A stretch of 64,000 nucleotides of DNA from Bilabrum cf. latius (Eukaryota). The notes beneath the pieces were generated by a model. The model was given only the letters and a program-made list of their open reading frames with translations. It searched no databases and had not been told where the DNA came from. Each line of letters starts with the position of its first letter. The stretch's first letter is position 1. The stretch covers positions 124,001-188,000 of the forward strand of contig OZ237753.1 in NCBI GenBank assembly GCA_965178125.1, given 5' to 3'. The position numbers were made by a program, and so were the translations under genes. Shown piece after piece: positions 11,717 to 42,628 of the stretch.

Positions 11717-14700
11717 TCAATTACCGGCCTATTCATTATCACGTGCAGCCGACCCCGCCTTGCTCATGGACCCCTTCTTCAGGAGTGGGTTGCGGCCGCT
11801 GTTGCGCCGGCCTAGGGAGCGGCTCGACGCTGCGGCCCTTCCGAACTCCTTCTTCTTGCCCCCGCGAGCCATGCCCAGGCCCATGGGGTTCATGCCCATC
11901 GGACTCGACTCGCCTAGCTGACGAGATCTGGCAGACCCCACACGCGGGGACGAGGCGCCCACGAGAGGAAACACGCCGCTGGCTGCCGCCCGCACATTCT
12001 CCTTGGTCATCCTGCCGTACTCCTTGGACATCTCCTCGTACGACAGCACGAACTCCTTGAACTGGCCCCTGAGGCGCACCCACGAGTGCCGGTCCAGGCT
12101 CTCCAGTTCCATCATGCCGCGCATGTTCTGCAGGAGAGCAGAGTCGCCGTCCGCGCCGCTGTCCTTGCCAGCCTTGCTGACGTCCATGAGCGGGTTGGCG
12201 CTGTACTCGGCGTTGGACATGTCCACGTCGATCTTGCGGGCGGCCTTGCCCTCCTTGACCTTCTTGATGCTGGTCTGCTGCAGCCGACGGGCGCGGTCCT
12301 TGGCCGTCACCAGCATGTACAGCTCCAGCCCGAAGACCGTGAAGTAGTACGTGATGGATGACATGATGATGAGCATGAGGATGATGGTGATGGCGTCCCG
12401 CTGGTCCTGGTAGCCCTCCTGGTCGAAGCGGCCCGACTCGAGCATGATACCGCCCAGCGTCACGAGGATGGCGCAGAACAGCAGCACCGTCTCCACGGTG
12501 TTCCAGTTCATCACGTTGCTGCCCATCACGCCCATCACGTCCTTGGGATCCACGGCGGCTGCGTTGATGCGCGTGCTGCTGAGGCTGTTCTGGGACCTCT
12601 GGTTGGCCTTGTCCTGCCTCTTGTCCTGCGTGCGGATCGTGTCCCACAGCGAGTAGTACAGCTCAGGGGACCGAGCGCACATGATGAAGGCGGCAGAGCC
12701 CGTGGACTGCAGGCAGCCCGCGCACCCGTTCTATTGGGCACGCGCCATGGACCCGGTGCTGGCCATGCCGGTGGTGTCCAGCAGCTCATCGCGGCGGTTG
12801 GCCGAGTTCTGCGCAGCGGCCTTGTCGATGGCATCCGAGGAGCTGCGGTCCGCCTGGGCCTTGCGGAGACCCTCGTCCACGGACTTGCCGGCCCAGTCGA
12901 TGAGCGTGTCCTGATACTCGGCTGGGGGCATGTACGGGTTGTACTTGACCTGCAGCGTGTAGCACAGGAAGATGACCAGCAGCGTGGCGGCCATCTGGAA
13001 GGACGCGTTGGTGTTGAACATGAGCGAGCAGAAGGCGATGAGGGCCTTGCGCGCGATGATGGTCATGACCCACCAGTAGTACTCGGGCTTGAAGTAGTAG
13101 TACAGACGCTGGAACTTGACACGGAATGCTGCGGCCTGCTTGATGGCCTCGGGATCGGATGACACGAACGTGTATCCGTGTCCCTGGGCCCTCCTGAGCT
13201 GGTCCAGCATGATGGTCTCCTTATAGGTCACCAGCATAAAGGCAACCCACGCGGGGAAGCCGAACGTGTACACGATCAGCGCGATCACGGCGAAGGGCAT
13301 GAGCTGCAGCTGCACGCCGCCCTTCTGTCCGCATGGCTCGAACACGGCCTGCAGGTACTTCTGTCCGTCTGGCGGTGTGGTGGGCACGCAGTTGAACACG
13401 TCCAGGATGGTCTTGGTCTCGTGCAGGTACAGGAAGTACAGCAGCACGATCAGGCCAGCCACCAGAGGAGCGTACCGCTGCCCCTTGGGGTCCTTCTGCA
13501 TGTTGGTGAAGAGCGCGTACAGCCAGAAGGCCGCGAAGGCCACCATGCCCATGGCAATGACGGCCAGAGGCAGCAACACAATGAAGTACCACTTGGTCTG
13601 GAAGGCCAGCTCGGGCACAGTGCACTCGGGGGCCGTGATCTCGAGGTTCAAGTTGAAGGCGGACAGGATGTGGAACAGGTCCTTGAGCATGGGGGGCCAG
13701 CTCACGCGGGCGTTGGCGAAGATGGCCAGCACCTGGAAGTAGTCCACGCCGATGGCGATCAGCGCGATGTTGATCTTGCTGCGGTTCAGCCACAGGCCCA
13801 CGCATCCGGCCGTCATGGCCATCAGCACAAACGCCACGATGAGGATCCACGGGTTGTCGGGGCACTTGACGCACTCCCCCGCGCGCCTGTAGAAGCCCGT
13901 GTCGCAGCTGGCGCACCTGTACATGGGCGCCTTGGAGGCGTACCCTCGGGCGCAGAAGTTGTCGCCCACGCACGCCCACTGCGGCTCGCATGCCACGATG
14001 CACACGTCCCTGGGCCCGCCCTCGTGGATCGCGGGCTCGTTCTCGTCCAGCGGGTGCCTGGGCGCCACCACCTGCCGGCCTGGCGGGCAGACCTGCAGCA
14101 TGTTGAAGTTGGCGGAGTCGGACGAGTTGAGGTTGTAGAAGTTCTCCAAAGGCCTCGGCATGGTGTGCGTGTTGTTGAACTGGTCGTAGCCGTCGCACAC
14201 GCCTCCCTCGGGGCAGGGCAGGCACATCTCTCCCTCCAGACCGAAGTAGTCTCGGTCGCACACCACCTGCACCAGCGGCGGCCTGGTGATGTCTGCGAAG
14301 CGGCGCTGGCCAGCCACCTGCACGGTGATGTTCTTGGGCCCCACTGTGTCTGCGTCCAGGTGGCACTCCAACACGGCCCGCTGGGTGGTGTCCCCGGTGA
14401 ACTCGTCCAGCACCTCGGCCACGGAGCGCTGGGCTCCCTCGGGCAGAGCGCCCGGCATGAAGCACTCCCTTGCTCCGATGTGGATGCGGGACAGGCGCTC
14501 TGCCTCGCTCCAGCCCTCGGTGGATCCCGTGGGTCCGAAGTTCCTGCCCTTGATGGTGATGGGGTGCCTGCCCTCCAGCTCGCGCACCTCCACGGTCTGC
14601 GGAGTCACGGACGTGATGAACGGCCTCGAGTAGTTGACGAGCAGCACGTTGCTACGGATCTCTAGCACGTCCCCGTCAGTCACGCGAGCAGATGGGTTCT

Positions 14701-17700
14701 GCTCGAAGTAAGACACGAACACATCCCGGTTGGTACCCAAGCCCTCGGGGGTCACGAACACGATCTCGTCGTCCTGGTGACGCACGATGGTGGGCTGGCC
14801 CGGGCTCCACAGACTCCTGGACTCGCAGCCCTCGGCGCCCGTCACGGTCAGCTCCGACTGCGCCACGGCCGAGTCGGGGCCCAGCTGGGAGGTACCATCC
14901 AGGCCTCGCGCCACGGAGAGGCAGGCACGGTAGAACTGCACTGCCATGCCGGCCGTGGGCAGCACGCCCTGCGGCAGGCTGCTAGTGCCCATGTCCAGCT
15001 CGCCGTCGCCCTCGGGGGTGTGCAGGGGCAGTGGCACGCTTCCCGCCACGAAGGTCTGTGCCGCTGACTGCAGCACGTTGGGGTTGGTGATGGGCCCGCG
15101 GCCGAAGTTCCTGCCCTTGAGCACGAGCTGCGCCCCTCCCGCCGTGGGGATGTCAAACACGCTGTTGGGTAGCGCCTCGATCGAGTCAATCTCCGGGTCG
15201 TTGTACTGGAACGCCACACCCTCGATGCCGGCCTGCACACCCCTGAGCTTGGGTCCTTGCATGGCGCCCTCGGGCTGCTGTCCGCGCACGCGCAGGGTGA
15301 TGTCGCGCATGCCCACACCCGGAGGCATCAGCAGCCGCACCCTGTCGTGTGTCCAGCTCAGCACGTGCCCGTGCCATACTTCGCCCTCGCCGTACACAGT
15401 CTCCGAGTGATCGCACACCAGGTTCCGCAGGCGAGTCCCCAGCGGCGCCGCGCTCTCCTCGGCGTCCCTGTTGGGCCATGCCACAAAGGCGCAGGAGGTG
15501 TCGTTATTTCTGGCTCCAAAGTTCTCGCCATCCAGCTCGACCTCGTAGAAGCCCACCGCAGGTCCGCGGCGCACCGTCACCTGCGTGGTGCCGTCCTCGG
15601 CCTGCACCACCTCCTGGCTGGCAGTGGCGGCGTACACAGTGGCGCCTGTGATGGAGGGCTTCATGTACGCGAAGGCGTCCTGCAGCGGCTCCGACCGCAC
15701 GCCTGCCACGCTGACCACTGCATCTAGACGAGCACCGGTGCCCTCAGCCAGAGTGCACTCCATCTCGTCGTAGGCGGGGCGGTTGGCGGGCGCGGGGATG
15801 CGCACGGGGTCGGAGCAGTTGAGCATGCCGGGCGCGCTCGTGTCGGTGATCTCCTGCTCGGCGGCTCGTTCCTGGGAGAGAGAGCTGTCGCGGCCGATGT
15901 GCACGGCCAGCTGAGCCACCACTCCAGTGTCCGCCTGCAGCGGACTGGGCTCGCCGAAGTTGGTGCCGCGCACTAGCACGCGCACACCGCCGCGGGTGGG
16001 TCCCCTGGGCAGTCCGTTGAGGGTCACGCTCTGGATGGCGGGGGGCGTGTGGGAGTGCACCATGGGCTGTGAGTCCTGCCCGCCCACCGTCACGCGGAAG
16101 GCAAACGGCATGCCTCCCAGGGCCGGGTCCGTGCCGTCGCCCTCGCCCTGGGGCACACGCAGCTCCAGCATGGTGTGCGAGCGGCTGCGGCGGGCGGGGT
16201 CCTGGGTCGTGTGCCTGCATGCAGATGTCTCGTCCTGGTACTGCTCGCCCATCTCGAACATGTTGCCGAAGCCGAGACGCACCTGGGGGCACAGCCCGAA
16301 GTTCTCACCCACGATGCGCATGATGGCCCCTCGAGTAGGTGTGTATACCACGCCGTCCGCTGGAGTGAACACCTCGTCGGGCTGTCCGGATGGATTGGCC
16401 GACGTATCGTGCCAGACCTGCACCTCTGTGATGGACGGAGGCGCGTACGAGATAAACTGCGGACCAGACACGATCCCATCGCTGCCGGCCGAGAAGCGCT
16501 GCACCACCACAGGCACCTGCGAGCCGTCGTTCACGAACTCGCCGCGGGGTCCAGCCGGCATCACGCAGGCGATGTCCCACTGCATGCCTCCATTGTCCGC
16601 GTCAATGAGCGAGTTGTAGCTCGGATTGGCATCCACCTGGGCCTGCAGGATCACAGTGGGGAAGTCCGCGTCGGACACGGTCTGTGACGGGTCGGAGGGT
16701 AGCACCAGCGGGCACGGCTGCCCGCCCACGTCCACCTGAATGCTCTGTGCCTGCCCGATGCGGGCCACCTTGAGCTCGAGGATCTGCCCTCCCGCCGTGT
16801 TGAAGGCGTCGGCTCCCTGCAGACCTGCCACCTGGGGAGACACGTCGTAGTACTGGGCGGCAGGAGACGTCTGGCTCTTCTCCATGGCACCGTCGTATGA
16901 GAAGGAGCCCAGATGAACCTTCGCGAACCCAGAGTCCACGTCGGTCATAACCTCGATCACGGTGTCGGTCCAGTCCACCACCTGCACGCGGCCCGTATCT
17001 GCCGAGAAGTCCGACGGGTCGTTCGAGGGCGCGATGAGCACCTTGCGCTCCACCTGGTCGTTGAGCTCCTGCGCCGAGGCACCGAAGTTGCGGCCGTACA
17101 CGCGCAGCAGCTTGATGCCCTCCTGTCCGGGGAACAGATTGGCTCGCTGGTTGGCGTACGGTCCCGTGGTGCCGATGGGATCCAGCGAGAGGAAGTCGAT
17201 CGAGGGGTTCTGGTAGGTGAACACCTTGGGGTCGGTCACCACCACAGACGCATTGATGGGTCCCTCGGTCACCATGGTCGTGTAGGCCGACATGTCCACG
17301 GCGCTGCGGAGTGCCAGCTGGGGGAAGCCCGCGGGCGAGTTGACCAGCACCACCGCTCTGTCCTTGCCCACTCCAGAGGGCAGCGCGAACTTGACCGTCT
17401 GCACTGCGTCGCGGTCGTATCCGGCTGGGTACGTGGCATTGCCAGAGGCAGGCTCGAAGCGACCAGTGCCAGACATGGGCTCCGTGGTTGCAATACCAGC
17501 AGTCATCGTGCCGTCAGCAGCGTGGCCAAAGTTGACGGTCAGCGTGGATCGGCTGTCCGCGAATCCGAAGTGCTTGCCTGTCACCTTGACCATCTGGGGG
17601 CTCTCCTCGTCCTGCTGCGCGTGCCCGAAGGCAGGCGAGATTGACATGACTTCGGGTGCGGCATACGACACGGTGGATTGGGACTCTGGTGACTCCTGGT

Positions 17701-20700
17701 CGCCCACAACTACCACGAACCGCATATCGGCACCCACACCTGGGGGCACCCGTACCCTGATCCTCTGGTGGTCCGTCATGATGCGGTACTCGGACTCGGG
17801 CAGCACGTACTGGTGGGCCCCGTTGCCGAAGCGCACCTCCTGCAGCAGCTGCTCGTCTCCCGACGGCCCGAAGTTGCGGCCCACGAGCTCCACGTAGTCT
17901 CCACCCTCGGGGCTCAGCTGCCGGTCCTGGGGCATGGCGGGCATGGGGTCCACCGAGATCGGCTCGCCACTCACCGTGGCAGGGAACAGCCCAGCCCCGT
18001 TGAAGCGCTCGATCGAATCGATCACAGGCAGGGCATACGCAGTCACCGGGTCTCTGGAAGTCAGCCCAGCCACCACCATGGTCCACTTGAGGTCGGCACC
18101 GCCACCCACAGCCAGCTCGCACCGGATCCGCTTGTGGTCCACCACCATGCTGCAGCTGCTGCCATCCACGGCGAACGTCCTGATCTCGGGATCGATGGCA
18201 TTGCCGCTCTCGTCGAAGCGGGCCATGACCAGCCTGTACGAGATGGCCACGTGGTCGTCCATCACGGGGCCGAAGTTGTCGCCGTAGATCTCGATGAGGT
18301 CCCCGCCCTCCGTGCGACCTTGCTTCACCGCATCGATGTTCTCGGCATCTGCCACATCGTCAAAGCCTGCAATGGTGGGGGCAGAGTAGCTCGAATTAGC
18401 CTCGAAGATGGCCTCGGTCATCTGCCCGCCCACGCGCAGAGCCCAAGAGTAGCCCGCACCGCGGCCCGGGATGAGCCGGCAGTTGACGCGGCTGACACCG
18501 TGCCTGGCCGGGTCACGCACCACCTCGCATGCCCCCGTGGCCTCGTCCTGGTCCATCTCGTACAGGCCGCTACCTGCCGGGAAGTCGCTCTCCAGCCCGA
18601 ACTGCACCAACTCGATGGCGTTCATGGCCACAGGTCCGAAGTGCTCGCCGTCGATCTCTACCAGATCGCCCCCAGAGGTGGAGGCCTCCTTGGCACCAGG
18701 CCCGAACACACGGGTGATCACCGGTGGCAGGTAGCTCAGCTGCTCCGAGGAGGGGCTGCTCTCGAGGTCGAATGCGGTGGACACCTGCCCGGGCATCACC
18801 ACCTTGAGGCGGTGGTTCCGGCCCACACCTGCCCCCGTGGTGCACGTCAGCCTCGTGTGCTCCGATCCGACGTCCTTGGTGCACGTCACATCGCTCACGT
18901 ACTCGTGATCTCCGATGGCAGCCACCAGCCCAGGGATGGTGCTGGGCCTGGTGCCATACGACACGCGGGGCACAAGCGCCCTGGAGCTGATGTCGGTCAT
19001 GGGCCCGAAGTTGCGACCCTCCACCACAATGGTCTCGCCGCCCGCAGCGTTCATCGAGTCCAAGCCGTGCATGGATCCGGCTGGCACGCTCACACTCGTC
19101 ACCTCAGGAGCGGCGTACTCGATCTGGTCCGCAGCAGCCACCTCTGACACAGTCCCGCCCACGCGCACGTACAGGCTCAGTCCCTGCCCGTACCCCTCGC
19201 CCGTTCTGATTCTCAACTCATCGTAGCCTACGCCGTAGACTTGCACGGTCGCCACGAATGGCAGATCATCGAACACAATCTCTTCATCTCCATCAGCCGA
19301 TGGCAGGTCGGACTAGAAGCCGTACCTGACCTGCACCAGATTCAGGTCCATCCCTTCGAAGCCCAAGTTGGCGCCAGTCAGGATGATCGTCTCACCGCCT
19401 GCCGTGTTCATGGGCCGCGTGTTGACGAGGTCGTTGGGGCCGGCGATGGAGGCCACCGACGGAGCTGCATACCCAGAGAGCACAGGCTCCAGGAAGCGAA
19501 CCTTCTCTCCTCGCATGATCACGTGCCATCGGAAGTTTGAGCCCACGCCTGGAGGCACCTAGCACGTCATGTAGTCGAGGTCGTTGCTATTTTCGTCCGT
19601 GTCTCCTGACTTTTTCACTTTGCAGTTGGTTGCATTGTAGGACAAGTATGGCGCCGATGTCTGGCTGTACCACACGCTCAAGTCAGTCGTGTCCACGAGG
19701 TTCAGCCCAATCAGCCTCACACCCTGCACGAAACCCCCGGATGTGCCCCTAGTCAGCATCTGCCGGAATGAGTAGTCCTCTTCCTCCCGCACCTGGTCGT
19801 TGCACTGCCCGTCGCACACCTGCACGGCGGTCAGCAGCGGATTCGAAGCCAGGTCCCGAGCGGTGAGGTCTGACGCGATGATGACCATCTGCTTGCCCAC
19901 GGTGGGAGTCGACACGCGCCCATCATCGGCCGCCAGCTCGACTTCGTACACGCCCCTCACTAGCCTGCCCTCGTACTCGATGGGGTACATGGGGTCGTCT
20001 TCCTGGGGGGCCGTGTGGTAGGTCAGGTCCACCTTGAACTCGAGCTGCTTGGTGCCGGTGGGGTCATTGGTGTCAGGCGTGTCCCGGAGATCAAAGACGA
20101 TTTCGTTCGCCGGCAGTGCTTCGCGAGTCTCAGATGTGTCGGTGAGGAAGTTTCCATCCACGAAACCAGGCAGCCGAGTGACTGACACGATGCTGTAGTC
20201 GACCTGGTCGTTATCTTCATCAAGTGACCGCATGACAACTACTCTTGACCCCGCCATGGCAGCCCCCTCGCCCACCACATAGACAGTCGGCGGTACCTCC
20301 GGGGGGTCGTTGACGTCGTTCAGAGTCACATTGATCTACTTGCCATCATCCAGCCCCTCTGGATCCGCCACGGTCACGAACAGCAGGTGCTCGTGCTTCT
20401 CCTCGTAGTTGAGACCCTCTTTGGCCACCGACAGCTGGCCCGATGATTCGCCGATCGTGAAGAAGCCGTCGTCGTTGCCAGCCAGGATAGACCAGGTGAA
20501 ATCAGTGTCATCGTCTGGGTCGGTAGCAGTGAATGGCCCGGGCAGCACGTTGGTGCCCACTGCAGAGTTCTCGTCCACGGTGACCATCACGGGATCCATC
20601 TGATCCATGACGGGCGGGTCGTTGCGGTCCAGCACGTTGATGGTCACGTCAACCTCACTGGCAGCGAAGTCCTTGCCGTCCGTCTTGCCCACCACAGTGA

Positions 20701-26000: not shown

Positions 26001-26299
26001 ATCACATCCACCACGATGGGGTCGAGTGGGGTTTGAGTATCTCGCCTGATGCCTGCTTGCGTCGATGGTCGGGACGTAGTCCACCAGTGGAACAGGGCGC
26101 CCTTCTTTACGATCATCATTGCGATGGATAGTACGTTGCAAGACTGTGGGGCCTAGCACGTTGGACAGTAGGCCATGTGCAGTGCGAGCAAGCCGGTGTG
26201 GATGAATCTGGGCGCGGTGGAGCCCTCCCCTGCGGCATCATCGTCGTTGGTGTCAGCTGATACCTGGCCGCGTGATTGGAGTAGCATGGCCGTTCAAAC

Positions 26300-31300: not shown

Positions 31301-34300
31301 GTCAGTCACACGAGCAGACGGGTTCTGCTCAAAGTAAGACACAAACACATCCCGGTTGGTGCCCAGGCCCTCGGGGGTCACGAACACGATCTCGTCATCC
31401 TGGTGCCGCACGATGGTGGGCTGGCCCGGGCTCCACAGACTCCTGGACTCGCAGCCCTCGGCGCCCGTCACGGTCAGTTCCGACTGCGCCACGGCCGAGT
31501 CGGGGCCCAGCTGGGAGGTGCCATCCAGGCCTCGCGCCACGGAGAGGCAGGCACGGTAGAACTGCACCGCCATGCCGGCCGTGGGCAGCACGCCCTGCGG
31601 CAGGCTGCTGGTGCCCATGTCCAGCTCGCCGTCGCCCTCGGGGGTGTGCAGGGGCAAAGGCACGCTTCCCGCCACGAAGGTCTGTGCCGCTGACTGCAGC
31701 ACGTTGGGGTTGGTGATGGGCCCGCGGCCGAAGTTCCTGCCCTTGAGCACGAGCTGCGCTCCTCCCGCCGTGGGGATGTCAAACACGCTGTTGGGCAGCG
31801 CCTCGATCGAGTCGATCTCCGGGTCGTTGTACTGGAACGCCACACCCTCGATGCCTGCCTGCACACCCCTGAGCTTGGGCCCTTGCATGGCGCCCTCGGG
31901 CTGCTGTCCACGCACACGCAGGGTGATGTCGCGCATGCCCACGCCTGGAGGCATCAACAGCCGCACACTGTCATGGGTCCAGCTCAGCACGTGCCCGTGC
32001 CATACCTCGCCCTCGCCGTACACAGTCTCCGAGTGGTCGCACACCAGGTTCCGCAGGCGAGTCCCCAGCGGCGCCGCGCTCTCCTCAGCGTCCCTGTTAG
32101 GCCACGTCACAAAGGCGCAGGAGGTGTCGTTATCTCTGGTTCCAAAGTTCTCGCCATCCAGCTCGACCTCGTAGAAGCCCGCCGCAGGTCCACGGCGCAC
32201 CGTCACCTGCGTGGTGCCGTCCTCGGCCTGCACCACCTCCTGACTGGCAGTGGCGGCGAACACAGTGGCGCCGGAGATGGAGGGCTTCATGTACGCGAAG
32301 GCGTCCTGCAGCGGCTCCGACCGCACGCCTGCCACGCTGACCACTGCATCCAGACGAGCACCGGTGCCCTCAGCCAGAGTGCACTCCATCTCGTCGTAGG
32401 CGGGGCGGTTGGCGGGCGCGGGGATGCGCACGGGGTCGGAGCAGTTGAGCATGCCTGGCGCGCTCGTGTCGGTGATCTCCTGCTCGGCGGCACGTTCCTG
32501 GGAGAGAGGGCTGTCACGGCCGATGTGCACGGCCAGCTGAGCCACCACCCCAGTGTCCACCTGCAGCGGACTGGGCCCGCCGAAGTTGGTGCCGCGCACC
32601 AGCACGCGCACACCGCCGCGGGTGGGTCCCCTGGGCAGTCCGTTGAGGGTCACGCTCTGGATGGCGGGAGGCGTGTGGGAGTGCACCATGGGCTGCGAGT
32701 CCTGCCCGCCCACCGTCACGCGGAAGGCAAACGGCATGCCTCCCAGGGCAGGGTCCGTGCCATCGCCCTCGCCCTGGGGCACACGCAGCTCCAGCATGGT
32801 GTGCGAGCGGCTGCGGCGGGCGGGGTCCTGGGTCGTGTGTCTGCACGCGGATGTCTCATCCTGGTACTGCTCGCCCATCTCGAACATGTTGCCGAAGCCG
32901 AGGCGCACCTGGGGGCACAGCCCGAAGTTCTCACCCACGATGCGCATGATGGCCCCTCGAGTAGGTGTGTAAACCACGCCGTCCGCTGGAGTGAACACCT
33001 CGTCGGGCTGTCCTGATGGGTTGGCCGACGTGTCGTGCCAGACCTGTACCTCTGTGATGGACGGAGGCGCGTACGAGATGTACTGCGGACCAGACACGAT
33101 GCCATCGCTGCCGGCCGAGAAGCGCTGCACCACCACAGGCACCTGCGAGCCGTCGTTCACGAACTCGCCGCGGGGTCCAGCCGGCATCACGCAGGCGATG
33201 TCCCACTGCATGCCTCCATTGTCCGCGTCAATGAGCGAGTTGTAGCTCGGATTGGCATCCACCTGGGCCTGCAGGATCACAGTGGGGAAGTCGGCATCGG
33301 ACACGGTCTGCGACGGGTCGGAGGGTAGCACCAGTGGGCACGGCTGTCCGCCCACGTCCACCTGGATGCTCTGTGCCTGCCCGATGCGGGCCACCTTGAG
33401 CTCGAGGATCTCCCCTCCCGCCGTGTTGAAGGCGTCGGCTCCCTGCAGACCTGCCACCTGAGGAGACACGTCGTAGTACTGGGCGGCAGGAGACGTCTGG
33501 CTCTTCTCCATGGCACCGTCGTATGAGAAGGAACCAACGTGAACCTTCGCGAACCCAGAGTCCACATCGGTCATGACCTCGATTACGGTGTCGGTCCAGT
33601 CCACCACCTGCACGCGGCCCGTATCTGCCGAGAAGTCCGCTGGCTCGTCCGAGGGCGCGATGAGCACCTTGCGCTCCACCTGGTCGTTGAGCTGCTGCGC
33701 CGAGGCACCAAAGTTGCGGCCGTACACGCGCAGCAGCTTGATGCCTTCCTGTCCGGGGAACAGCTCGGCCTGCTGGTTGGCGTACGGCCCCGTGGTGCCG
33801 ATGGGATCCAGCGAGAGGAAGTCGATCGAGGGGTTCTGGTAGGTGAACACCTTGGGGTCGGTCACCACCACAGACGCATTGATGGGTCCCTCGGTCACCA
33901 TGGTCGTGTAGGCCGACATGTCCACGGCGCTGCGGAGTGCCAGCTGGGGGAAGCCCGCGGGTGAGTTGACCAGCACCACCGCCCTGTCCTTGCCCACTCC
34001 AGAGGGCAGCGCGAACTTGACCGTTTGCACTGCGTCGCGGTCGTATCCGGCTGGGTACGTGGCATTGCCAGCCGCGGGCTCGAAGCGACCAGTACCAGAC
34101 ATGGGCTCCGTGGTTGCGATACCTGCAGTCATCGTGCCGTCAGCAGCGTGACCAAAGTTGACGGTCAGCGTGGATCGGCTGTCCGCGAATCCGAAGTGCT
34201 TGCCTGTCACCTTGACCATCTGGGGGCTCTCTTCGTCTTGCTGCGCGTGCCCAAAGGCAGGCGAGATTGACATGACCTCGGGCGCGGCATACGACACGGT

Positions 34301-37300
34301 GGACTGGGACTCGGGCGACTCTTGATCGGCCACAACAACCACGAACCGCATATCGGCCCCCACACCTGGGGGCACCCGTACCCTGATCCTCTGGTGGTCC
34401 GTCATGATGCGGTACTCGGCCTCGGGTAGCACGTACTGGTGGGCCCCGTTGCCGAAGCGCACCTCCTGCAGCAGCTGATCATCTCCCGACGGCCCGAAGT
34501 TGCGGCCCACGAGCTCCACGTAGTCTCCACCCTCGGGGCTCAGCTGGCTGTCCTGAGGCATGGCGGGCATGGAGTCCACCGAGATCGGCTCGCCACTCAC
34601 CGTGGCAGGGAACAGCCCAGCCCCGTTGAAGCGCTCGATCGAGTCGATCACGGGCAGGGCATACGCAGTCACCGGGTCTCTGGAAGTCAGCCCAGCCACC
34701 ACCATGGTCCACTTGAGGTCGGCACCGCCACCCACGGCCAGCTCGCACCGGATCCGCTTGTGATCCACCACCATGCTGCAGCTGCTGCCATCCACGGCGA
34801 ATGTCCTGATCTCGGGGTCGATGGCATTGCCGCTCTCGTCGAAGCGGGCCATGACCAGTCTGTACGAGATGGCCACGTGGTCGTCCATCACGGGGCCGAA
34901 GTTGTCGCCGTAGATCTCGATGAGGTCCCCACCCTCCGTGCGACCTTGCTTCACCGCATCGATGTTCTCGGCATCCGCCACGTCGTCAAAGCCTGCAATG
35001 GTGGGGGCAGAGTAGCTCGAGTTAGCCTCAAAGATAGCCTCGGTCATCTGCCCGCCCACGCGCAGGGCCCAAGAGTAGCCCGCACCGCGGCCCGGGATGA
35101 GTCGGCAGTTGACGCGGCTGACACCGTGCCTGGCCGGGTCACGTACCACCTCGCATGCCCCCGTGGCCTCGTCCTGGTCCATCTCGTACAGGCCGCTGCC
35201 CGCCGGAAAGTCGCTCTCCAGCCCGAACTGCACCAACTCGATGGCGTTCATGGCCACAGGTCCGAAGTGCTCGCCGTCGATCTCCACAAGATCGCCTCCA
35301 GAGGTGGAGGCCTCCTTGGCACCTGGCCCGAACACACGGGTGATCACCGGTGGCAGGTAGCTCAGCTGCCCCGAGGAGGGACTGCTCTCCAGGTCGAATG
35401 TGGTGGACACCTGCCCGGGCATCACCACCTTGAGGCGGTGGTTCCGGCCCACACCAGCCCCGGTGGTGCACGTCAGCCTCGTGTGCTCCGATCCGACGTC
35501 CTTGGTGCACGTCACATCGCTCACGTACTCGTGATCACCAATGACAGTCACCAGCCCGGGGATGGTGCTGGGCCTGGTGCCATACGACACGCGGGGCACA
35601 AGCGCTCTGGAGCTGATGTCGGTCATGGGCCCGAAGTTGCGACCCTCCACCACGATGGTCTCGCCGCCCGCAGCGTCCATCGAGTCCAAGCCGCGAATGG
35701 ATCCCGCTGGCACGCTCACACTCGTCACCTCAGGAGCGGCGTACTCGATCTGGTCCGCAGCAGCCACCTCTGACACAGTCCCGCCCACGCGCACGTACAG
35801 GCTCAGTCCCTGACCGTACCCCTCGCCCGTTCTAACTCTCAGCTCATCATAGCCTACGCCATAGACTTGCACGGTCGCCACGAATGGCAGGTCATCGAAC
35901 ACAATCTCTTCATCTGCATCAGTCGATGGCAGGTCGGACTAGAAGCCGTACCTGACCTGCACCAGATTCAGGTCCATCCCTTCGAAGCCCAAGTTGGTGC
36001 CAGTCAGGATGATCGTCTCACCGCCTGCCGTGCTCATGGGCCGCGTGTTGACGAGATCGTTCGGACCGGCGATGGAGGTCACGACAGGTGCTCCATACCC
36101 AGAGAGTACAGGCTCCAGGAAGCGAACCTTCTCTCCCCGCATGATCACGTGCCATCGGAAGTTTGAGCCCACGCCTGGAGGCACCTAGCACGTCATGTAG
36201 TCGAGGTCGTTGCCATCGTCGTCCATATCGCCCGACTTTTTCACTTTGCAGTCGGTTGCATTGTAGGACAAGTATGGCGCCGATGTCTGGCTGTACCACA
36301 CGCTCAAGTCAGTAGTGTCCACGAGGTTCAGCCCAATCAGCCTCACACCCTGCACGAAGCCCCCGGATGTACCCCTAGTCAGCATCTGCCGGAATGAGTA
36401 CTCCTCTTCCTCCCGCACCTGGTCGTTGCACTGGCCGTCGCACACCTGTACAGCAGTCAGCAGCGGAGTCGAAGCCAGGTCGCGAGCGGTGAGGGCGGAT
36501 GCGATGATGACCATCTACTTGCCCACGGTGGGAGTCGACACGCGCCCATCATCCGCCGCCAGCTCGACCTCGTACACGCCCCTCACTAGCCTGCCCTCGT
36601 ACTCGATGGGGTACATGGGGTCGTCTTCCTGGGGGGCTGTGTGGTAGGTCAGGTCTACCTTGAACTCAAGTTGCTTGGTGCCGGTGGGGTCATTGGTGTC
36701 AGGCGTGTCCCGGAGATCGAAGACGATCTCGTTCGGTGGCAGTGCTTCGCGAGTCTCAGATGTGTCGGTGAGGAAGTTTCCATCCACGAAGTCAGGTAAG
36801 CGAGTGACCGACACGACGCTATAGTCGACCTAGTCGTTGTCCTCGTCTTCCTGTTCCAGTACGGCGATGGGAAAACCGGCAAGGGCGTCAGATTCACCGA
36901 TCACATGAACCGTATCCGGGACGACGGGTGGATCGTTAACGTTGTTGAGAGTCACATTGATTGTCCTGCCATCATCCAGCCCCTCTGGATCCGCCACGGT
37001 CACGAACAGCAGGTGCTCCTGCTTCTCCTCGTAGTTGAGGCCCTCTTTGGCCACCGACAGCTGGCCCGATGATTCGCCGATCGTGAAGAAGCCGTCGTCG
37101 TTGCCAGCCAGGATAGACCAGGTGAAATCAGTGTCATCGTCTGGGTCGGTAGCAGTGAATGGCCCCGGCAGCACGTTGGTGCCCACTGCAGAGTTCTCGT
37201 CCACGGTGACCATCACGGGATCCATCTGGTCCATGACGGGCGGGTCGTTGCGGTCCATCACCTTGATGACCACGTCAACCTCGCTAGTAGCGATGTCCTT

Positions 37301-40300
37301 GCCGTCAGTCTTGCCCACCACAGTGATCACGTACTGAGTCTTGACATTGTAGTCCAGGATGCCATTCGCCACCTTGATCTGGCCATCACACAATCCAATT
37401 TTGAACACTGGCAAGAAGCTTCCGCTTCCGTCCTTGGTCTGCCCATCGTTGTTCCCTTCCGGCTTGATGTACCATAGAATCACTTGGTCCTGGCCTAGTG
37501 GTGTTCCCTGGATGGGGCTGCCCACCATTGTGCCGGGAATGACGCGCTCCTCCACCTCCAGCGCATCGTCAAGGTCAGGGATGGTCGGGGGCAACGGATC
37601 GCACTTGATAGCCTCGCCAGAAAAGCCGCCATCCGAGTCGCAGGGTCTCCACTCTTCCGAATCCGCAGCTGTACGGTAGCCAGTTGCGCACTTGAACTCA
37701 CAGAACTCACCAGTCACGATTCCATCGCACTGCGTGCCGTCCTTGCAGTCGGTGTGCACCGTGAAATCGTCGATCTCCACGCCGTCGCCCTGCGCCGCAA
37801 TGCCCTGCATGCCGAAGGTGAGCAATATTGTGCGGGATGGATCGCTAAACGTGGAAACAAGCTCGTCACCGCAGTACACCTTGATGTTGGTGCGGTCCTG
37901 CACGGCTCTGATGAGTTGGGGCTCCTCCGTGTCGTCCGTTGGGATGCTGCAGTCCTTTGTAAATTCGACCTCGTTCTCCGTGTACATATACCTGCGCTCC
38001 GTGGCATCGTACCCATACTTCCAGTAGGTCATGTGGTGCCTGTCCTCGCCGCCCTCGAGGCTGACAGCGTACCCGCTCGTGAGGGAAGTGGTCTTGCGGA
38101 GCAGCAGCTGCGCCCTCGTCCCCTCAGGTACGATGAACTTGGCCTCGACATTGAGCTTGCGGCCGGACGTGTGCCGGTACGTCTGCGCGCTGCCCATGGC
38201 AACGAGGTAGTCGAAGTCAGCAATGGGCTTAGCGATTGTGGACGACCCAGAGGGGCAATCCTCACCACCACTACTACTACTATTCAGTACTTTGTGAACG
38301 AGGCGCCCATTCTCGAGCTTCCAAACGTCTTTCACCTCGGGTGAGGACAGAGGTTGTACTGGTACAGGCTGAAGCATTGGAAACCACGAGGGACCCTCGT
38401 TACTCTCCAAATCATTTAAGTCGTCCCCGAAGCCCATGTAGTTGTGCACGCGCCTGCAGGATCCGGTATTCTCTGGCATGCCCAGTCTGGGGCAGTTCCG
38501 TCCGCACCGCCCCAGCCCGCTACCCCAGGTGCCAGTAGCTACGTTACCATATGTGTACCAATACTCGCGTGAGTAGCTGAATTGGAATCCTTGGATGATT
38601 TCTTTGTTTCCGTTGCAGTACATCAAACAGGCAGAGTTTTGGGTTAGTGGCAGCGTGTAGGTCCAGCTGGGGCTCCGGTCGCCGCATCCGGATCGGCTCA
38701 ATCGGTTCTGGTAGTCGGGCAGCCAGCTAGTTGGGACCAGCTGGCTCACGGCTCGTAACACCGGACGCTTGTACTTGTCCTTAAGATGAGCACTGATCCG
38801 CTGCATGGTGGTGGTGTTCATGGGCTTGTCGGCAGGGGACGTGTACACGAGGTACTCGAGCATGTAACTGAGGCTGCTCTTCGGCCTGATCTCGCTCTGC
38901 GGAGGAGGATTCATGTAATTTTAGAAGGAGGAACCAGTCTTATCGTCAAAGCCACTCACATGCAATCCATTTATCAAAGCATGAGGCAAACTAGCAATGT
39001 CCGTGGCAAGCTCACCCAGTACGGCATCCCGTTGACGGTGCGCCCTTGCACCTCCCCATAGTCCCTGCCAATGCGGAGGCGGCTGGCTGCGAGAGCAAGG
39101 AATCAAGGAGACAAGGGCAGCACGCATGGGCTGCACAGGCTAGCATATTTGCAACGATGGCTCAAATATTGCTCACCAGTAGAGTAGACGGCTCCGGTGA
39201 AGTTTCTCAGGCTCGAATACGATGCCGACACGCCTTGGAACGTCTGTTGGTTCCTAGTGCCCGAGGCAGGGCTCTCGGTGATGTCGTCGTTCAGGCCCAC
39301 GTGGAACTGGTGCTCTGTTCCGACCTTCTTGGTCCAGCCGGCCATCACCATTGGCAGCTCGTCACGCCAACCGCTGTACGAGTAGAAAGCGAAGTTGTAC
39401 GGCAGCTCCTGCTTCTTGAGCGACGCCTGCGCCTGCGAATTGGCTGAGCCAGCGGTTCCGGACCGGCCCATGAATCCCAGCACGGGGCGATTGTAGGCTA
39501 GTGTAAAATATCGGTAGTAGTACTGGGTCGTGGTGCCGTCCCAGCCGAGGTTCCAGCCGTTGCGGACGCGCTGGCCATAGCTCCTGACGATGCGGCCTGC
39601 GACACAGAACGTGCGAATCATGATACGCGGAGAGCATATGTTGATGCCATATCGACCTTTACAATCAAGCGTAAACATAACACTGCAGCTTTCGCGGTTT
39701 ATTATGACATACACGAGTGCAACAGGCGGTTGGTATTAAGGAGACAGAGTCTGATTCGTTGTTGACGTCAAATGAGATGATAAGCGTCTGTGCGATGAGG
39801 ATGGCCTCTGTTCTCGTGGCTGCATGCCAACGAGCACGCCTCGGTACTCTCCGTTCCAGCCGAGGTTCAGCGGACCCTGCGATGGTGGCGACATGCCCTG
39901 CTGCACCAGGATGGCCGCTCGTTCCCGCGACAGCACGATCCCGAACGCGATCCAGTGATGTTCACGGACGCATCGCTGCATGGATGGGGTGGCTACTTGG
40001 TCTGGCCCTCAGGTGCCACGTAGGCCATCTACGGCACGTGGCCGGATTCTACCTGCCTACTGTCCAACGACATCTCGGCTCTCGAACTCGGATGCATTGA
40101 GATCCTGTGTGATCATTGGAAGAACGAACTGCGGGGACATGTGTTGCTTGTGCGGTGTGACAACTCCGCCTCTGTGCATTGTTTGCGTCGTGGGTTTTGT
40201 CGTAGTGTCCGCATGGCTCGCATCCTCGCTGACCTGTTCACCACCCTCTGCTCCCACGACGTGTAGGTTTGGAGCCGGCACATACCAGGGTTAGAGAACA

Positions 40301-42628
40301 CCTGGGCCGACCGCTTGTCCAGGGAAGGTCACCCGACAAACTTGCCGCCGCACTGGGAATCGGTGAGGGAGCTCCCGACGCCTACGAGGACTTGGTCGAA
40401 CTTGCGGCCATCAAGGCCGCCTCGAGCATCGAGGCGAATGGCACCACGGCACTTCGGCACTGGGCAGCGTACGGCCGCAGATACGGCCTCGACCTGGCGC
40501 CACCGGCCTTTGGCTCCATCGGTCCGGCACGCAACGAGGCCTTCGAAGTGGAACTCGGCAGATTCATCACGTACGTGGCGGCGGCCGAGCCGGGCATCAG
40601 CGGCGCCTCCGCAAGCCAGTACGCAGCGCAAGTGGCGTCCTTGTACAAACGACTAGGAGGAGTCGCAGTGAAAGGACTCGGTGACTTTGGCCATGCAGTG
40701 GCCAGGCACTACACGGCAGCCAAGCCAACCCTTGCGAGTCTGCACCGCACGCCCATCCCGTTGTCGGCAGTGCGGCGCTTCTTTGAGTTCCAGCCATCCA
40801 CCCCCGGCGAAAGTGCGGCCCAGTTGGCGGGTGCACTGGCCTTTGGGGGGACCATGCGCCTGGGCGAGGCCACCGGAGAGGCACGGGCTGCCTCTGACCC
40901 GCATCGCCTCAGGCATGTATCCTGGGCAATCGAGGACAATCAGGTGATCAGCTGCTCCCTGCACCTGCGGTTCACCAAGGCGGGTGGACCAGCCACGGTG
41001 GCTATTGCAGCCCGATCCCCTGTGTAGGTGGACAAAGGCGGGGTACAGGGCAGCACATGCTGCCCTGTTTACCTTCTCGTCCGGCACGTCGTGACAAGGT
41101 TGACCTCGGCGGGAATCCCGGTCACCTCGCCCCACCACCTGCACAACGCCTGCCAGAACAGTCAGGTGTTGTTGTTCCCGGAGATCGCATCGCCAGGTCG
41201 CCGTAAGACGCGGCACATCGTCGCAGCCGATGTCGTACGCCTGGTGCGGAGCTGTGCAAGCCACCACGATGATGCGAGTGGGTGGCATGGGCACAGTTTC
41301 CGCATCACCAGCACCACCACAATGGTGCGACTGGGCATCGAGCACGGCATTGTGCAGCGTCTTGGACGGTGGGCTTCCACCAAGAGCATGAACACCTACA
41401 TCCGGCAGGAGGCCGACGGGCTGCCAGCGATCGATATTGGTTGGACGCACCTTGAGCTGCAGCGAGCACCACAGGCGGCGCTGCTCGAGGCGGTGGCACA
41501 AGCTCGGGCGTCCGACTAATCCCAACTAACTTGGAGACACTTTGCTTTGCTTCAACGAGACCACCCTCTGCAACCTCCCGTAAGGAAGATATGGTAAGAC
41601 ATGGAGAATTCGTTGTGTGTCTCCGCTGGTGGACAAATCCATCGGTGGATTCAGGCACATGGCGACGGCTCTGTGTTCGATGCCATGTCTGGTTGTATTT
41701 GGGTGGTTGAGTCTGTAAAAGAAGCTTTCATGGAAGTCACGATGTCATGGTATTAAGGAGACAGAGTCTGATTCGTTGTTGACGTCAAATGAGATGATAA
41801 GCGTCTGTGCGATGAGGATGGCTCTGCGAAGAAGGAGAACGCCGCAACACCTTGTCCGTAGGTGGGAAGAGGAATTGTAGCGTTAGACATCGTAATCTGA
41901 TTAACGGAAGAGGCAGGCCACGAAGAGTGGAGGTTGGCATTTCTCCAGTCAATCGCCTCCATTCGGGGTGGAAGAGCTCAGGACTGACAGATCGTCTTGA
42001 ATTCTTTTCCCACCCGCCCGGGCCCGGAGAATTCGTTGTGTGTCTCCGCTGGTGGACAAATCCATCGGTGGATTCAGGCACATGGCGACGGCTCTGTGTT
42101 CGATGCCATGTCTGGTTGTATTTGGGTGGTTGAGTCTGTAAAAGAAGCTTTCATGGAAGTCACGATGTCAATGTTTTTCTCACCCATACTGATGACCTCC
42201 CAAGGATTCCCCTTGTTCGGGTACGTGTAAGGCTTTCCGACTGCAAACACGTACCTGTTGTGGTTGCTGCTGATATCAATCTTCTTCATATCAGCCGCCT
42301 CAGTTTCCGCCGGGACGTACTCCATGATGACGGAGCTGGTCATGTAGGCGGCTGAGAAGCACCCCACTCGACTCGTGTACACCCACGGCGACATCTGCGT
42401 GTTGAACGTTGAGCTGTAAGCCGCACGCAAGCCTTGCCAAGACCCAGCTTGTAATTTTGCCTTATCAGAGTTCTTCTGCGTAAGTACTCGGCCGTTTGAA
42501 TTCTTTGAAAAGTCCAAGTGGACCAGCAACTCAACACCGTCGCCAAGTCCGTCCTTCAGGGCATCTTGCTCAGCAATGGCGTTCAAAGCTAACGTCGCTG
42601 CTGCTGTAGCGAAGACGAGCGCCTTCAT
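28343..42628 (-). CDS. Giant surface receptor copy 2 (~3829 aa), tandem paralog of 11717-23515; intron 1 hosts a retrotransposon
   Basis: Introns at homologous positions: 39597-42183 (2587 nt), 39087-39176 and 38897-39015; the spliced length is divisible by 3. In-frame TAGs at 36830, 36515, 36185, 35939 and 30224; TGA at 28343; signal peptide MKALVFATAAATLALNAIA. Confidence 0.85.
39805..40671 (+). pseudogene. C-terminal remnant of the RT/RNase H ORF (DIRS1-type RNase HI domain intact; gag and RT deleted)
   Basis: With TAG=Q: ..LRWWRHAL..MFTDASLHGWGGYL..DISALELGCI..VRCDNSASV..HIPGLENTWADRLSR. This carries all four acidic RNase H residues. TAGs at 40021 and 40264 lie inside the domain. Confidence 0.88.
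40269..41519 (+). CDS. Tyrosine recombinase of the Ngaro-like element; TAG at 41025 read through; ends TAA
   Basis: Catalytic set: GGTMRLGE (R), FTKAGG (K), GHSFRI (HxxR), LGRW, MNTYIR (Y). It overlaps the end of the RNase H ORF in another frame. No early in-frame ATG, so the start is uncertain. Confidence 0.88.

What the first reader, a model, noticed from the sequence alone, without database searches (positions are those of the whole stretch)
11717..42628. Internal Rosetta stone: TAG swaps with CAG/CAA between tandem paralogs in both directions
Copy 1 has TAG where copy 2 has Gln at 11729 (NE*AGN vs DEQAGK, CAA), 12731 (AQ*NG vs AQQNG), 21554 (GST*TYRH vs GSAQTYRH), 22663 (EQ*FHVG vs EHQFHVG) and 22879 (NTD* vs TTTQ). 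Copy 2 has TAG where copy 1 has CAG at 30224 (AF*TKW), 36515 (GK*MVI) and 36830 (DND*VDY). Two further TAGs are shared by both copies (19313/35939, 19559/36185). TAG therefore behaves as a synonymous Gln codon, identifiable without any database.
Basis: seen in the sequence. Interest (0 to 1): 0.82.

Follow-up and report, generated by a model that had tools for sequence, protein, structure and literature searches.

The report
Protist genome reads TAG as glutamine
This stretch comes from a single-celled eukaryote related to the marine flagellate Cafeteria in which the stop codon TAG is used as an ordinary glutamine codon, a rare kind of genetic-code change that I could not find reported for this branch of life.

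Summary
Observation confirmed, interpretation supported. All 12 TAG coordinates are real. With introns removed, the two tandem genes are 3827- and 3829-codon frames carrying 10 and 5 in-frame TAGs and ending in TGA.

- **Not pseudogenes.** dN/dS is 0.07-0.28 in every segment. No in-frame TAA or TGA occurs, against 34 and 311 off-frame.
- **Synonymous rate.** CAG<->TAG differs at 7/132, like synonymous CTG<->TTG (7/150) and unlike non-synonymous first-position C<->T (5/806, p=4e-4).
- **In the RNA.** Intron-less contigs from another study carry five TAGs unchanged.
- **Genome-wide.** Every other gene in the window also carries TAG. Homology runs through TAG only.
- **Relatives.** Two environmental relatives do the same.

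This is the known UAG-to-Gln variant, probably table 15. The lineage is a Cafeteria-related stramenopile, for which seven literature searches found no report. No tRNA(CUA) or eRF1 could be examined, and TAA's status is only weakly settled.

The parts
11717..23515 (-). Paralog copy 1: 3827-codon CDS with a signal-peptide-like N-terminus, cadherin and IPT/TIG repeats and a C-terminal membrane region. Exons are 23080-23515, 22533-22952, 22374-22444 and 11717-22273. It holds 10 in-frame TAG and ends in TGA.
   Evidence: The frame is open under TAG=Q. Pfam finds TIG and Cadherin. The three introns appear as GT..AG joints in contigs of runs X6 and X7. The ATG at 23515 followed by MPIPLYLAVAIGWSLAAVA is my reading, not experimentally supported.
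28343..42628 (-). Paralog copy 2: 3829-codon CDS. Exons are 42184-42628, 39177-39596, 39016-39086 and 28343-38896. It holds 5 in-frame TAG and ends in TGA.
   Evidence: The introns are inferred by homology to copy 1 and by GT..AG ends that keep the frame. They are not confirmed by reads.
22879..22881 (-). TAG in copy 1, opposite CAG (39523) in copy 2
   Evidence: It is present in the intron-less contigs of X6/X7 and in the DNA contigs of X1/X2 with 0 other letters.
22792..22794 (-). TAG in copy 1, opposite TCG (Ser) in copy 2.
   Evidence: It lies within the stretch covered with 0 other letters.
22663..22665 (-). TAG in copy 1, opposite CAG (39307) in copy 2
22259..22261 (-). TAG in copy 1, opposite AAG (Lys) in copy 2. 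It lies in exon 4, 13 nt from the acceptor.
21554..21556 (-). TAG in copy 1, opposite CAG (38183) in copy 2
20336..20338 (-). TAG in copy 1, opposite ACA (Thr) in copy 2. The relatives L001 and L002 have CAG here.
19559..19561 (-). TAG in copy 1, shared with copy 2 (36185)
   Evidence: The ORF fragment P0223 (87% identical) ends exactly before this column.
19313..19315 (-). TAG in copy 1, shared with copy 2 (35939)
12731..12733 (-). TAG in copy 1, opposite CAG (29357) in copy 2
11729..11731 (-). TAG in copy 1, four codons before the TGA stop, opposite CAA (28355) in copy 2
36830..36832 (-). TAG in copy 2, opposite CAG (20204) in copy 1
36515..36517 (-). TAG in copy 2, opposite CAG (19889) in copy 1. 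L001, L002, P0223 and P0252 all have Gln here.
36185..36187 (-). TAG in copy 2, shared with copy 1 (19559)
35939..35941 (-). TAG in copy 2, shared with copy 1 (19313)
30224..30226 (-). TAG in copy 2, opposite CAG (13598) in copy 1
11717..11719 (-). TGA terminator of copy 1
   Evidence: GC3 drops from 0.76 to 0.57 after it.
28343..28345 (-). TGA terminator of copy 2
3100..6738 (+). SLC12 cation-chloride cotransporter gene (main exons). In-frame TAG lies at 4225, 5335 and 6547. It ends in TGA at the conserved C-terminus.
   Evidence: Pfam AA_permease and SLC12. Homology to NKCC1 and to Cafeteria SLC12 runs through TAG 4225 and 5335 and through no other stop.
1..1470 (+). Sestrin-like gene (3' part). 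In-frame TAG lies at 547 and 1354. It ends in TGA.
   Evidence: Pfam PA26. The alignment to human sestrin-2 continues past TAG 1354 to the C-terminus.
43028..46300 (+). Armadillo-repeat and RING finger gene frame. It holds nine in-frame TAG, including 45017 inside the Arm repeats. It ends in TAA.
53066..54523 (-). RNase H2 subunit C-like frame with four TAG in frame
60729..62093 (+). GH5 cellulase-like gene with TAG at 60909 and 61974. It ends in TGA.
55625..61003 (-). 1792-codon frame with no Pfam match and nine TAG. It ends in TAA.

Best explanation
The window is nuclear DNA of a GC-rich (about 60%) eukaryote. Its closest named relative in the searches is the bicosoecid stramenopile Cafeteria. 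In this organism UAG is no longer a terminator and is translated as glutamine. UGA is the main terminator, and UAA probably also terminates, which would make this NCBI table 15.

The two tandem giant cadherin/IPT-TIG membrane-protein genes show the change internally. Since their duplication, and through later gene conversion of the 3' 9.5 kb, CAG and TAG have drifted into each other by C<->T transitions at the synonymous rate, in both copies.

- **Shown here:** TAG is inside translated, selected, transcribed frames in every gene of the window, and its meaning is Gln.
- **Inferred from other organisms with UAG/UAR-to-Gln codes:** a tRNA-Gln with anticodon CUA reads UAG, and eRF1 has lost UAG recognition. 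Neither gene is in the window, and no whole genome was available.
For: 1. **Open frames.** Under TAG=Q the two spliced CDSs are 3827 and 3829 codons, with 10 and 5 TAG, one terminal TGA each and no frameshift.
2. **Which stops are excluded.** In-frame TAA and TGA both number 0 of 7,656 codons, against 34 and 311 in the two off-frames. In-frame TAG numbers 15, against 52 off-frame (about 26 expected at that density). So TAG is tolerated in frame while the other two are excluded.
3. **Purifying selection.** dN/dS between the copies is 0.28 overall and 0.07-0.28 in seven successive segments, so selection holds downstream of every TAG.
4. **Pairing.** 8 of 11 discordant TAG columns pair with CAG or CAA. 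In the 95%-identical 3' part it is 5 of 6, and none pairs with GAG.
5. **Rates.** CAG<->TAG is 7/132, synonymous CTG<->TTG is 7/150 and non-synonymous first-position C<->T is 5/806. Fisher p is 4e-4 against the non-synonymous class and 1.0 against the synonymous one.
6. **Likelihood.** Over 20 amino acids, using the paralogs' own substitution frequencies, Gln has a posterior of about 1. The next best is His at 8e-12, then Glu at 3e-14.
7. **Independent sequence.** Contigs of X2 (another study) match 21110-23200 with 0 other letters. Contigs of X6 and X7 (a third study) lack the three GT..AG introns and also show 0 other letters there. So TAG 21554, 22259, 22663, 22792 and 22879 are present in what is most simply spliced RNA.
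8. **Other genes.** Every other recognisable gene of the window carries in-frame TAG.
9. **Homology through stops.** tblastn matches run through TAG 4225 and 5335 in SLC12 (12 matches from 7 queries). They run through 9 TAG sites in the paralogs (195 matches from 34 queries). They never run through TAA or TGA.
10. **Terminators.** SLC12 ends in TGA exactly where its relatives end, and sestrin ends about where human sestrin-2 does.
11. **Relatives.** Two metagenome contigs, 56-63% identical in protein, hold 10 and 3 in-frame TAG in 1131 and 1455 codons without TAA or TGA. Their dN/dS is 0.19.
Against: - No tRNA gene lies in the window or in L001/L002 and no genome is held. The decoding machinery is therefore unseen.
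- Distant homologues do not show Gln at most TAG positions. These are variable sites: K/N/R/D at SLC12 4225, and T or S at the two shared TAGs. The amino-acid identity rests mainly on the paralog pair, plus Gln in relatives at 2 columns.
- Three of 11 discordant columns pair TAG with Ser, Lys or Thr.
- In the environmental relatives TAG aligns with Glu about as often as with Gln.
- That TAG never terminates a gene is based on only 10 gene ends, and most of those are defined by frames read with TAG=Q. Only SLC12 and sestrin have homology-anchored ends.
- The labelling of X6 and X7 as RNA is the tool's guess; for X6 it says 'probably DNA'. My reading as RNA rests on the three precise intron-less joints.
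Confidence: 0.9

Rival explanations
1. Both tandem copies are decaying pseudogenes, or null alleles, and the TAGs are ordinary C->T nonsense mutations of CAG.
For: TAG differs from CAG by one transition, so nonsense mutation predicts the same TAG/CAG pairing. An earlier scan note judged a single TAG/CAG difference in a Naegleria gene pair to be just that (e1-682837).
Against: - dN/dS is 0.07-0.28 in all segments.
- Neither copy has a frameshift, TGA or TAA in 3,827 and 3,829 codons, against 311 TGA off-frame.
- Two TAGs are retained in both copies.
- The TAG-bearing exons appear in intron-less contigs.
- All unrelated genes of the window, and two environmental relatives, also carry in-frame TAG.
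Confidence: 0.01
2. TAG is a sense codon with a different or ambiguous meaning. It could encode Glu or another residue. It could also be dual-use, meaning Gln inside genes and stop near mRNA ends, as in Condylostoma, karyorelict ciliates or Blastocrithidia.
For: - In the relatives L001 and L002, TAG aligns with Glu at 3-4 columns and with Gln at 3.
- Termination at TAG cannot be excluded from 10 gene ends.
- In-frame TAG is somewhat rarer than its off-frame density predicts (15 against about 26).
Against: - Within the window's own paralogs, TAG never pairs with GAG (0 of 11) and pairs with CAG/CAA in 8 of 11.
- The likelihood for Glu is 3e-14 relative to Gln.
- The exchange rate equals the synonymous rate.
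- TAG 11729 lies four codons before the conserved TGA stop, and copy 2 has CAA there with the same three following codons in frame.
Confidence: 0.05
3. UAG is still a terminator. It is read through at high frequency by a near-cognate tRNA-Gln (leaky termination or programmed readthrough) without a dedicated suppressor tRNA or an altered release factor.
For: Near-cognate tRNA-Gln readthrough of UAG/UAA in standard-code organisms is described in print (abstract of PMC13192750, seen in the listing). No tRNA(CUA) could be shown here.
Against: A gene with 10 in-frame UAGs would yield almost no full-length product unless readthrough at each one were close to complete, and that is reassignment in practice. 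TAG occurs in every gene examined, at up to 5.7% of Gln codons. TAG evolves as a neutral synonym of CAG.
Confidence: 0.03
4. The TAGs are assembly or consensus errors, or are corrected at the RNA level by U-to-C editing that restores CAG.
For: None was found.
Against: - Contigs of X1 cover 14259-20477 and 20531-23200 with 0 other letters.
- X2 (another study) covers 21110-23200 with 0 other letters.
- The intron-less contigs of X6 and X7 (a third study) cover the exons of 21110-23200 with 0 other letters, so five TAGs are unedited there.
- None of the 40 listed differences falls on a TAG. A further 63 differences were not shown.
Confidence: 0.01

Closest known systems
UAG-only reassignment to glutamine (NCBI translation table 15). 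It is reported in the fornicate Iotanema spirale (PMC5304391, abstract and passages read). It is also reported in the ciliates Hartmannula sinica, Trochilia petrani and Protocruzia tuzeti (PMC11687900, passages read).
   Same: UAG is a Gln sense codon used at a low share of Gln codons: 3-6% here and about 8% in Iotanema according to PMC5304391. UGA terminates genes. UAA is not seen in frame.
   Different: The lineage is a Cafeteria-related stramenopile rather than a metamonad or ciliate. The genes are GC-rich (GC3 about 0.8). The UAA status is only weakly supported here. The tRNA and eRF1 have not been seen.
UAA+UAG reassignment to glutamine (NCBI table 6). It occurs in many ciliates, in Dasycladales and Cladophorales green algae (PMC2984419, abstract seen), and in hexamitid diplomonads, Streblomastix and Amoeboaphelidium (as listed in PMC11687900).
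   Same: UAG means Gln and UGA is the stop.
   Different: No in-frame TAA occurs in 10,242 homology-continuous codons of the two copies plus L001 and L002. About 3.2 would be expected if TAA shared the CAA/CAG bias (P=0.04). Two frames in the window end in TAA with a drop in GC3 after it.
Uncultivated giant viruses that read TAG as glutamine while TAA and TGA stay stops. These are earlier notes of this scan (e1-5306704, e1-5483507 and others). Alternative codes in giant-virus bins are also described in PMC13524828 (passages read).
   Same: The same code variant. Cafeteria, the nearest named relative here, is a giant-virus host (abstract of 10.1101/751586, seen in the listing).
   Different: Those are viruses with unknown hosts. 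Nothing here links them to this organism. The link is a lead and was not tested.
Stramenopile giant cadherin/IPT-TIG membrane proteins, annotated as 'Cadherin domain-containing protein' in Cafeteria roenbergensis, with relatives in Phytophthora and Triparma.
   Same: The domain make-up is shared: cadherin and many TIG repeats, plus a conserved C-terminal region 38-50% identical to the Cafeteria proteins.
   Different: The Cafeteria proteins were predicted as uninterrupted proteins of 2,793-5,218 residues by their sources. The two copies here are interrupted by TAG under the standard code.

Membership tests
NCBI table 15-type nuclear code (UAG = Gln; UAA and UGA = stop) | In-frame UAG inside conserved, selected protein-coding genes genome-wide | tested here: met
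   The two paralogs carry 15 TAG and have dN/dS of 0.07-0.28. SLC12, sestrin, GH5, RNase H2C and the Arm genes also carry TAG. Homology runs through TAG. Only this 64-kb window was examined, not the whole genome.
NCBI table 15-type nuclear code (UAG = Gln; UAA and UGA = stop) | UAG corresponds to glutamine | tested here: met
   8 of 11 discordant paralog columns pair with CAG or CAA. The exchange rate equals the synonymous rate. The posterior for Gln is about 1. Relatives have Gln at 20336 and 36515. Distant homologues are uninformative.
NCBI table 15-type nuclear code (UAG = Gln; UAA and UGA = stop) | UGA is kept as a terminator | tested here: met
   No in-frame TGA occurs in 7,656 codons, against 311 off-frame. 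SLC12 ends in TGA at the position where its relatives end. Both paralogs end in TGA at the same column.
NCBI table 15-type nuclear code (UAG = Gln; UAA and UGA = stop) | UAA is kept as a terminator and is not a sense codon | tested here: inconclusive
   No in-frame TAA was seen where about 3.2 would be expected if it were a Gln codon (P=0.04). Two frames end in TAA, and GC3 falls after it. No homology-anchored C-terminus ends in TAA.
NCBI table 15-type nuclear code (UAG = Gln; UAA and UGA = stop) | UAG is not used as a terminator | tested here: inconclusive
   None of 10 gene ends is TAG. However, 8 of these ends were defined with TAG read as Gln. Only SLC12 and sestrin are anchored by homology.
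NCBI table 15-type nuclear code (UAG = Gln; UAA and UGA = stop) | A tRNA-Gln with anticodon CUA and an eRF1 that no longer recognises UAG | not testable with these tools
   No tRNA lies in the window or in L001/L002. No whole genome is held.
NCBI table 6 (UAA and UAG = Gln) | In-frame UAA as well as UAG in coding sequence | tested here: not met
   No TAA occurs in frame in the two copies, L001 or L002. No homology match crosses a TAA. Power is low because the expectation is only about 3.2.
Pseudogene pair or nonsense alleles | Relaxed selection (dN/dS near 1), mixed stop types and frameshifts | tested here: not met
   dN/dS is 0.07-0.28. Only TAG occurs in frame, and there is no frameshift.
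Stramenopiles, Cafeteria-like (lineage assignment) | Closest named homologues are from Cafeteria and other stramenopiles | tested here: met
   The SLC12 protein is 53% identical to Cafeteria roenbergensis / C. burkhardae. The cadherin/TIG family's named hits are Cafeteria, Phytophthora, Triparma and Tetraparma. This rests on two gene families only. No rRNA or phylogenomic placement was possible.

The most novel reading that the evidence does not exclude
This would be the first nuclear genetic-code change documented in stramenopiles. It would be a UAG-to-Gln reassignment that arose after the split from Cafeteria, in a GC-rich heterotrophic flagellate lineage, and that is shared with uncultured environmental relatives. 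In some of those relatives the meaning of UAG (Gln or Glu) may still differ. If so, such flagellates are also candidate hosts for the giant viruses from oceans and soils that read TAG as glutamine and whose hosts are unknown.
Probability: 0.4. Interest if true: 0.78.

Novelty: new member of a known kind. Interest (0 to 1): 0.66.

Why it matters
**Rarity.** Nuclear genetic-code changes are rare in eukaryotes, and each new lineage is an independent replicate for asking how a stop codon is captured. According to PMC11687900 and PMC5304391, UAG and UAA nearly always change together. UAG-only changes to Gln were known from Iotanema and a few ciliates.

**What this case adds.** It would be a case in a stramenopile with GC-rich genes (GC3 about 0.8). 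It has a standard-code relative with a sequenced genome (Cafeteria) for comparison. Transcript-like data already appear to exist in public runs. That would make tRNA and eRF1 evolution directly comparable.

**Practical consequence.** Gene callers using the standard code cut this organism's and its relatives' genes at every TAG. The database fragments P0223 and P0252 end exactly at TAG columns. Its proteome, and environmental gene catalogues of its clade, are therefore mis-annotated.

**A possible cellular counterpart for recoded viruses.** The same code was noted earlier in this scan in giant viruses of unknown host. This link is a lead and was not tested.

Tried and rejected
- **Whole genome.** A search of the window's own genome for tRNA and eRF1 was not possible, because no genome is held.
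- **RNA genes.** ARAGORN and Rfam found nothing in the window, and ARAGORN found nothing in L001/L002.
- **Cross-species residue at TAG sites.**
  - PDB alignments for sestrin and SLC12 show only that homology continues past TAG. The aligned residues are R and S.
  - Five to seven SLC12 relatives give K/N/R/D at site 4225.
  - 78 family members give mixed residues at three C-terminal sites.
  - 34 queries give mixed residues at 9 sites.
  - These homologues are too distant to be diagnostic.
- **Sestrin search.** The third homology search returned nothing. 542 candidates shared words and none scored.
- **GC3 scan.** A GC3-periodicity scan meant to define coding regions independently of stops also flagged antisense frames. 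I dropped it as unclean and use none of its counts.
- **Sequencing runs.** No listed holder is on record as RNA. X6 and X7 are only guessed to be RNA by the tool.
  - Two further joints, 11993>12242 and 13778>13914, have non-canonical ends and short sides of 22-30 nt. I treated them as collapses between the two copies, not as introns.
  - Holes in contig cover over 16583-20100 in X6 and X7 were not interpreted.
- **Earlier scan notes.** There were none for this genome or sequence.
- **Literature.** Seven searches found no report of a stramenopile nuclear code change. The library lacks most subscription-journal papers and supplements were closed, so absence from print is not proven.
- **Not used.** I did not run structure prediction, complex prediction or the protein atlas, because they do not bear on the question.

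Full report
**What is in the window.** The window is eukaryotic nuclear DNA of about 60% G+C.
- It holds no tRNA or Rfam-recognised RNA, and no whole genome is held for it.
- Under the standard code the - strand between 11.7 and 42.6 kb is a string of medium ORFs.
- With TAG read as a residue, two frames of 3540 and 3525 codons appear, 16,626 bp apart in tandem.
- Pfam finds cadherin and IPT/TIG domains in both.
- They belong to a family of giant membrane proteins. Its named members come from Cafeteria roenbergensis, Phytophthora, Triparma and Tetraparma.
- A neighbouring SLC12 transporter is 53% identical to the Cafeteria protein, its best named hit.
- I therefore take the organism to be a Cafeteria-related stramenopile. 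This rests on two gene families only.

**Checking the observation.** All 12 coordinates of the finding are TAG on the - strand in the stated contexts.
- *Introns of copy 1.* Contigs of runs X6 and X7 skip 22274-22373, 22445-22532 and 22953-23079, each with GT..AG ends on the - strand. Joining the exons keeps the frame. The frame then leads up to an ATG at 23515 followed by a signal-peptide-like stretch.
- *Introns of copy 2.* Copy 2 has homologous GT..AG introns. Its first exon lies at 42184-42628, beyond a 2,587-nt first intron.
- *Gene models.* The models are 3827 and 3829 codons, with 10 and 5 in-frame TAGs and a single terminal TGA each.
The three are 22792/TCG, 22259/AAG and 20336/ACA.
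- *Chance.* Eight of 11 discordant columns pair with Gln codons, against a 4.4% Gln-codon share. That gives P = 2e-9.

**Is TAG translated, or are these broken genes?** TAG/CAG pairing alone cannot tell, because C->T nonsense mutation predicts the same pairing. Four independent results decide it.
- *Selection.* dN/dS between the copies is 0.28 overall and 0.07-0.28 in seven successive segments. Selection therefore acts downstream of every TAG.
- *Stop types.* The frames hold 0 TAA and 0 TGA in 7,656 codons, while the off-frames hold 34 and 311. TAG is tolerated in frame, with 15 in frame against 52 off-frame.
- *Independent contigs.* The intron-less X6/X7 contigs match the exons of 21110-23200 with 0 other letters. 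Five TAGs are therefore present in what is most simply spliced RNA. X2, from another study, and X1 agree at the DNA level.
- *Other genes.* Every other recognisable gene in the window carries in-frame TAG. Protein homology runs through TAG in sestrin, in SLC12 and at 9 sites of the paralogs. It never runs through TAA or TGA, across 12 matches from 7 queries and 195 matches from 34 queries.

**Which amino acid?**
CAG<->TAG differs at 7 of 132 sites. Synonymous CTG<->TTG differs at 7 of 150 (p=1.0). Non-synonymous first-position C<->T changes differ at 5 of 806 (p=4e-4).
- *The conserved 3' part.* This part has 2,940 codon pairs and 93 amino-acid differences. Here 5 of 6 discordant TAGs face CAG or CAA and none faces GAG. 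Q<->E replacement through CAG<->GAG is 3 of 258.
- *Likelihood.* Using the paralogs' own substitution frequencies, Gln has a posterior of about 1, with His next at 8e-12 and Glu at 3e-14.
- *Relatives as outgroups.* At 20336 (TAG against Thr) both L001 and L002 have CAG. At 36515 all four other sequences have Gln.
- *Distant homologues.* They are uninformative, because TAG sits at variable positions.

**Terminators.**
- *TGA.* It ends both paralogs at the same column, and it ends SLC12 and sestrin at or near the homology-defined ends.
- *TAA.* It is never in frame in the two copies, L001 or L002. About 3.2 would be expected if it were a Gln codon with the CAA/CAG bias (P=0.04). It closes two frames, and GC3 falls after it. 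TAA is therefore probably still a stop, which makes this table 15 rather than table 6, but this is not settled.
- *TAG.* Whether it ever terminates a gene cannot be judged from 10 gene ends.

**Beyond the window.** An exhaustive protein search returned two short fragments.
- *P0223.* It is 87% identical to the paralogs and 210 aa long. It ends exactly before the shared TAG column 19559/36185.
- *P0252.* It ends where its DNA (L001, 99% identical) has TAG.
- *L001 and L002.* These two metagenome contigs are 56-63% identical to the window's proteins. They carry 10 and 3 in-frame TAGs and no TAA or TGA in 1131 and 1455 codons, with dN/dS of 0.19 between them. TAG as a sense codon is therefore shared by a wider environmental clade.
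- *Standard-code relatives.* Cafeteria-level relatives, at about 50% identity, are predicted as uninterrupted proteins under the standard code.
- *Meaning in the relatives.* There TAG aligns with Gln at 3 columns and with Glu at 3-4. Its meaning in them is open.

**Mechanism.**
- *Shown.* TAG is a translated, neutral synonym of CAG.
- *Inferred.* By analogy with other UAG/UAR-to-Gln organisms, a tRNA-Gln(CUA) does the decoding and eRF1 does not recognise UAG. Neither could be looked for.
- *Divergence gradient.* dS between the copies falls from 2.7 at the 5' end to 0.07-0.13 in the 3' 9.5 kb. I read this as gene conversion of the 3' part, which is an inference.

**Comparison with what is known.**
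- UAG-only to Gln is described for Iotanema spirale (PMC5304391, abstract and passages). It is also described for Hartmannula, Trochilia and Protocruzia (PMC11687900, passages).
- UAR to Gln is described for many ciliates, ulvophyte algae, hexamitids, Streblomastix and Amoeboaphelidium (same passages; PMC2984419 abstract).
- 'Stramenopil' has no occurrence in either PMC5304391 or PMC11687900.
- Seven full-text searches found no stramenopile nuclear code change. The library is incomplete and supplements were closed, so prior publication cannot be excluded. The public runs date from 2025 and come from three studies.
- Earlier notes of this scan describe giant viruses that read TAG as Gln and have unknown hosts. 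PMC13524828 states that all confirmed giant-virus isolates come from standard-code hosts. A link to this lineage is only a lead.

**Verdict.** The code variant itself is a known kind. The lineage appears to be new for it. The decoding machinery, the status of TAA and the exact placement of the organism remain to be shown.

Noticed in passing
window 39597-42183 (intron 1 of copy 2); ORF 40233-41519 (+): Intron 1 is 127 nt in copy 1 and 2,587 nt in copy 2. The extra DNA holds a 428-codon frame on the opposite strand with a Phage_integrase (tyrosine recombinase) Pfam match (E=2e-6). It also holds direct repeats at 41603-41754 and 42026-42177, and repeats shared with 51903-52129. It looks like a tyrosine-recombinase mobile element inserted in the intron.
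   Followed up: partly
window 11470-23515 against 28087-42628: Divergence between the tandem copies is strongly graded. dS is about 2.7 and 1.5 in the first 900 codons and 0.07-0.23 in the remaining 2,940. The DNA identity is 95.1% over the 3' 9.5 kb. This suggests an old duplication whose 3' part is kept alike by gene conversion.
   Followed up: partly
L001 1-3397 and L002 1-4365 (metagenome contigs): Environmental relatives of the paralogs carry 10 and 3 in-frame TAGs. Against the other sequences these align with Gln at 3 columns and with Glu at 3-4. One example is the conserved MYP(F/I)-E-YEG site. The meaning of TAG in these relatives, Gln or Glu, is therefore open.
   Followed up: partly
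proteins P0223 and P0252 (database ORF fragments): Standard-code gene calls in public metagenome catalogues cut this protein family at TAG. P0223 ends exactly before the TAG column shared by both window copies. P0252 spans exactly from one TAG to the next in L001.
   Followed up: partly
window 44948-45952 (+): There are seven tandem 126-nt units (61-94% alike) that encode armadillo repeats of an Arm+RING gene. One repeat has TAG (45017) where the sister repeats have Glu, Ser or Ala.
   Followed up: no
window 25670-26005, 46758-47203 and 52320-52404: A dispersed repeat family (72-95% identical copies) lies in intergenic DNA on both sides of the paralog pair. Its nature is unknown.
   Followed up: no
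window 51355-51554: A run of 200 N marks an assembly gap.
   Followed up: no
window 7599-8606 (-): A thioredoxin-domain frame with six in-frame TAG. It is another example of TAG inside a recognisable domain protein.
   Followed up: no
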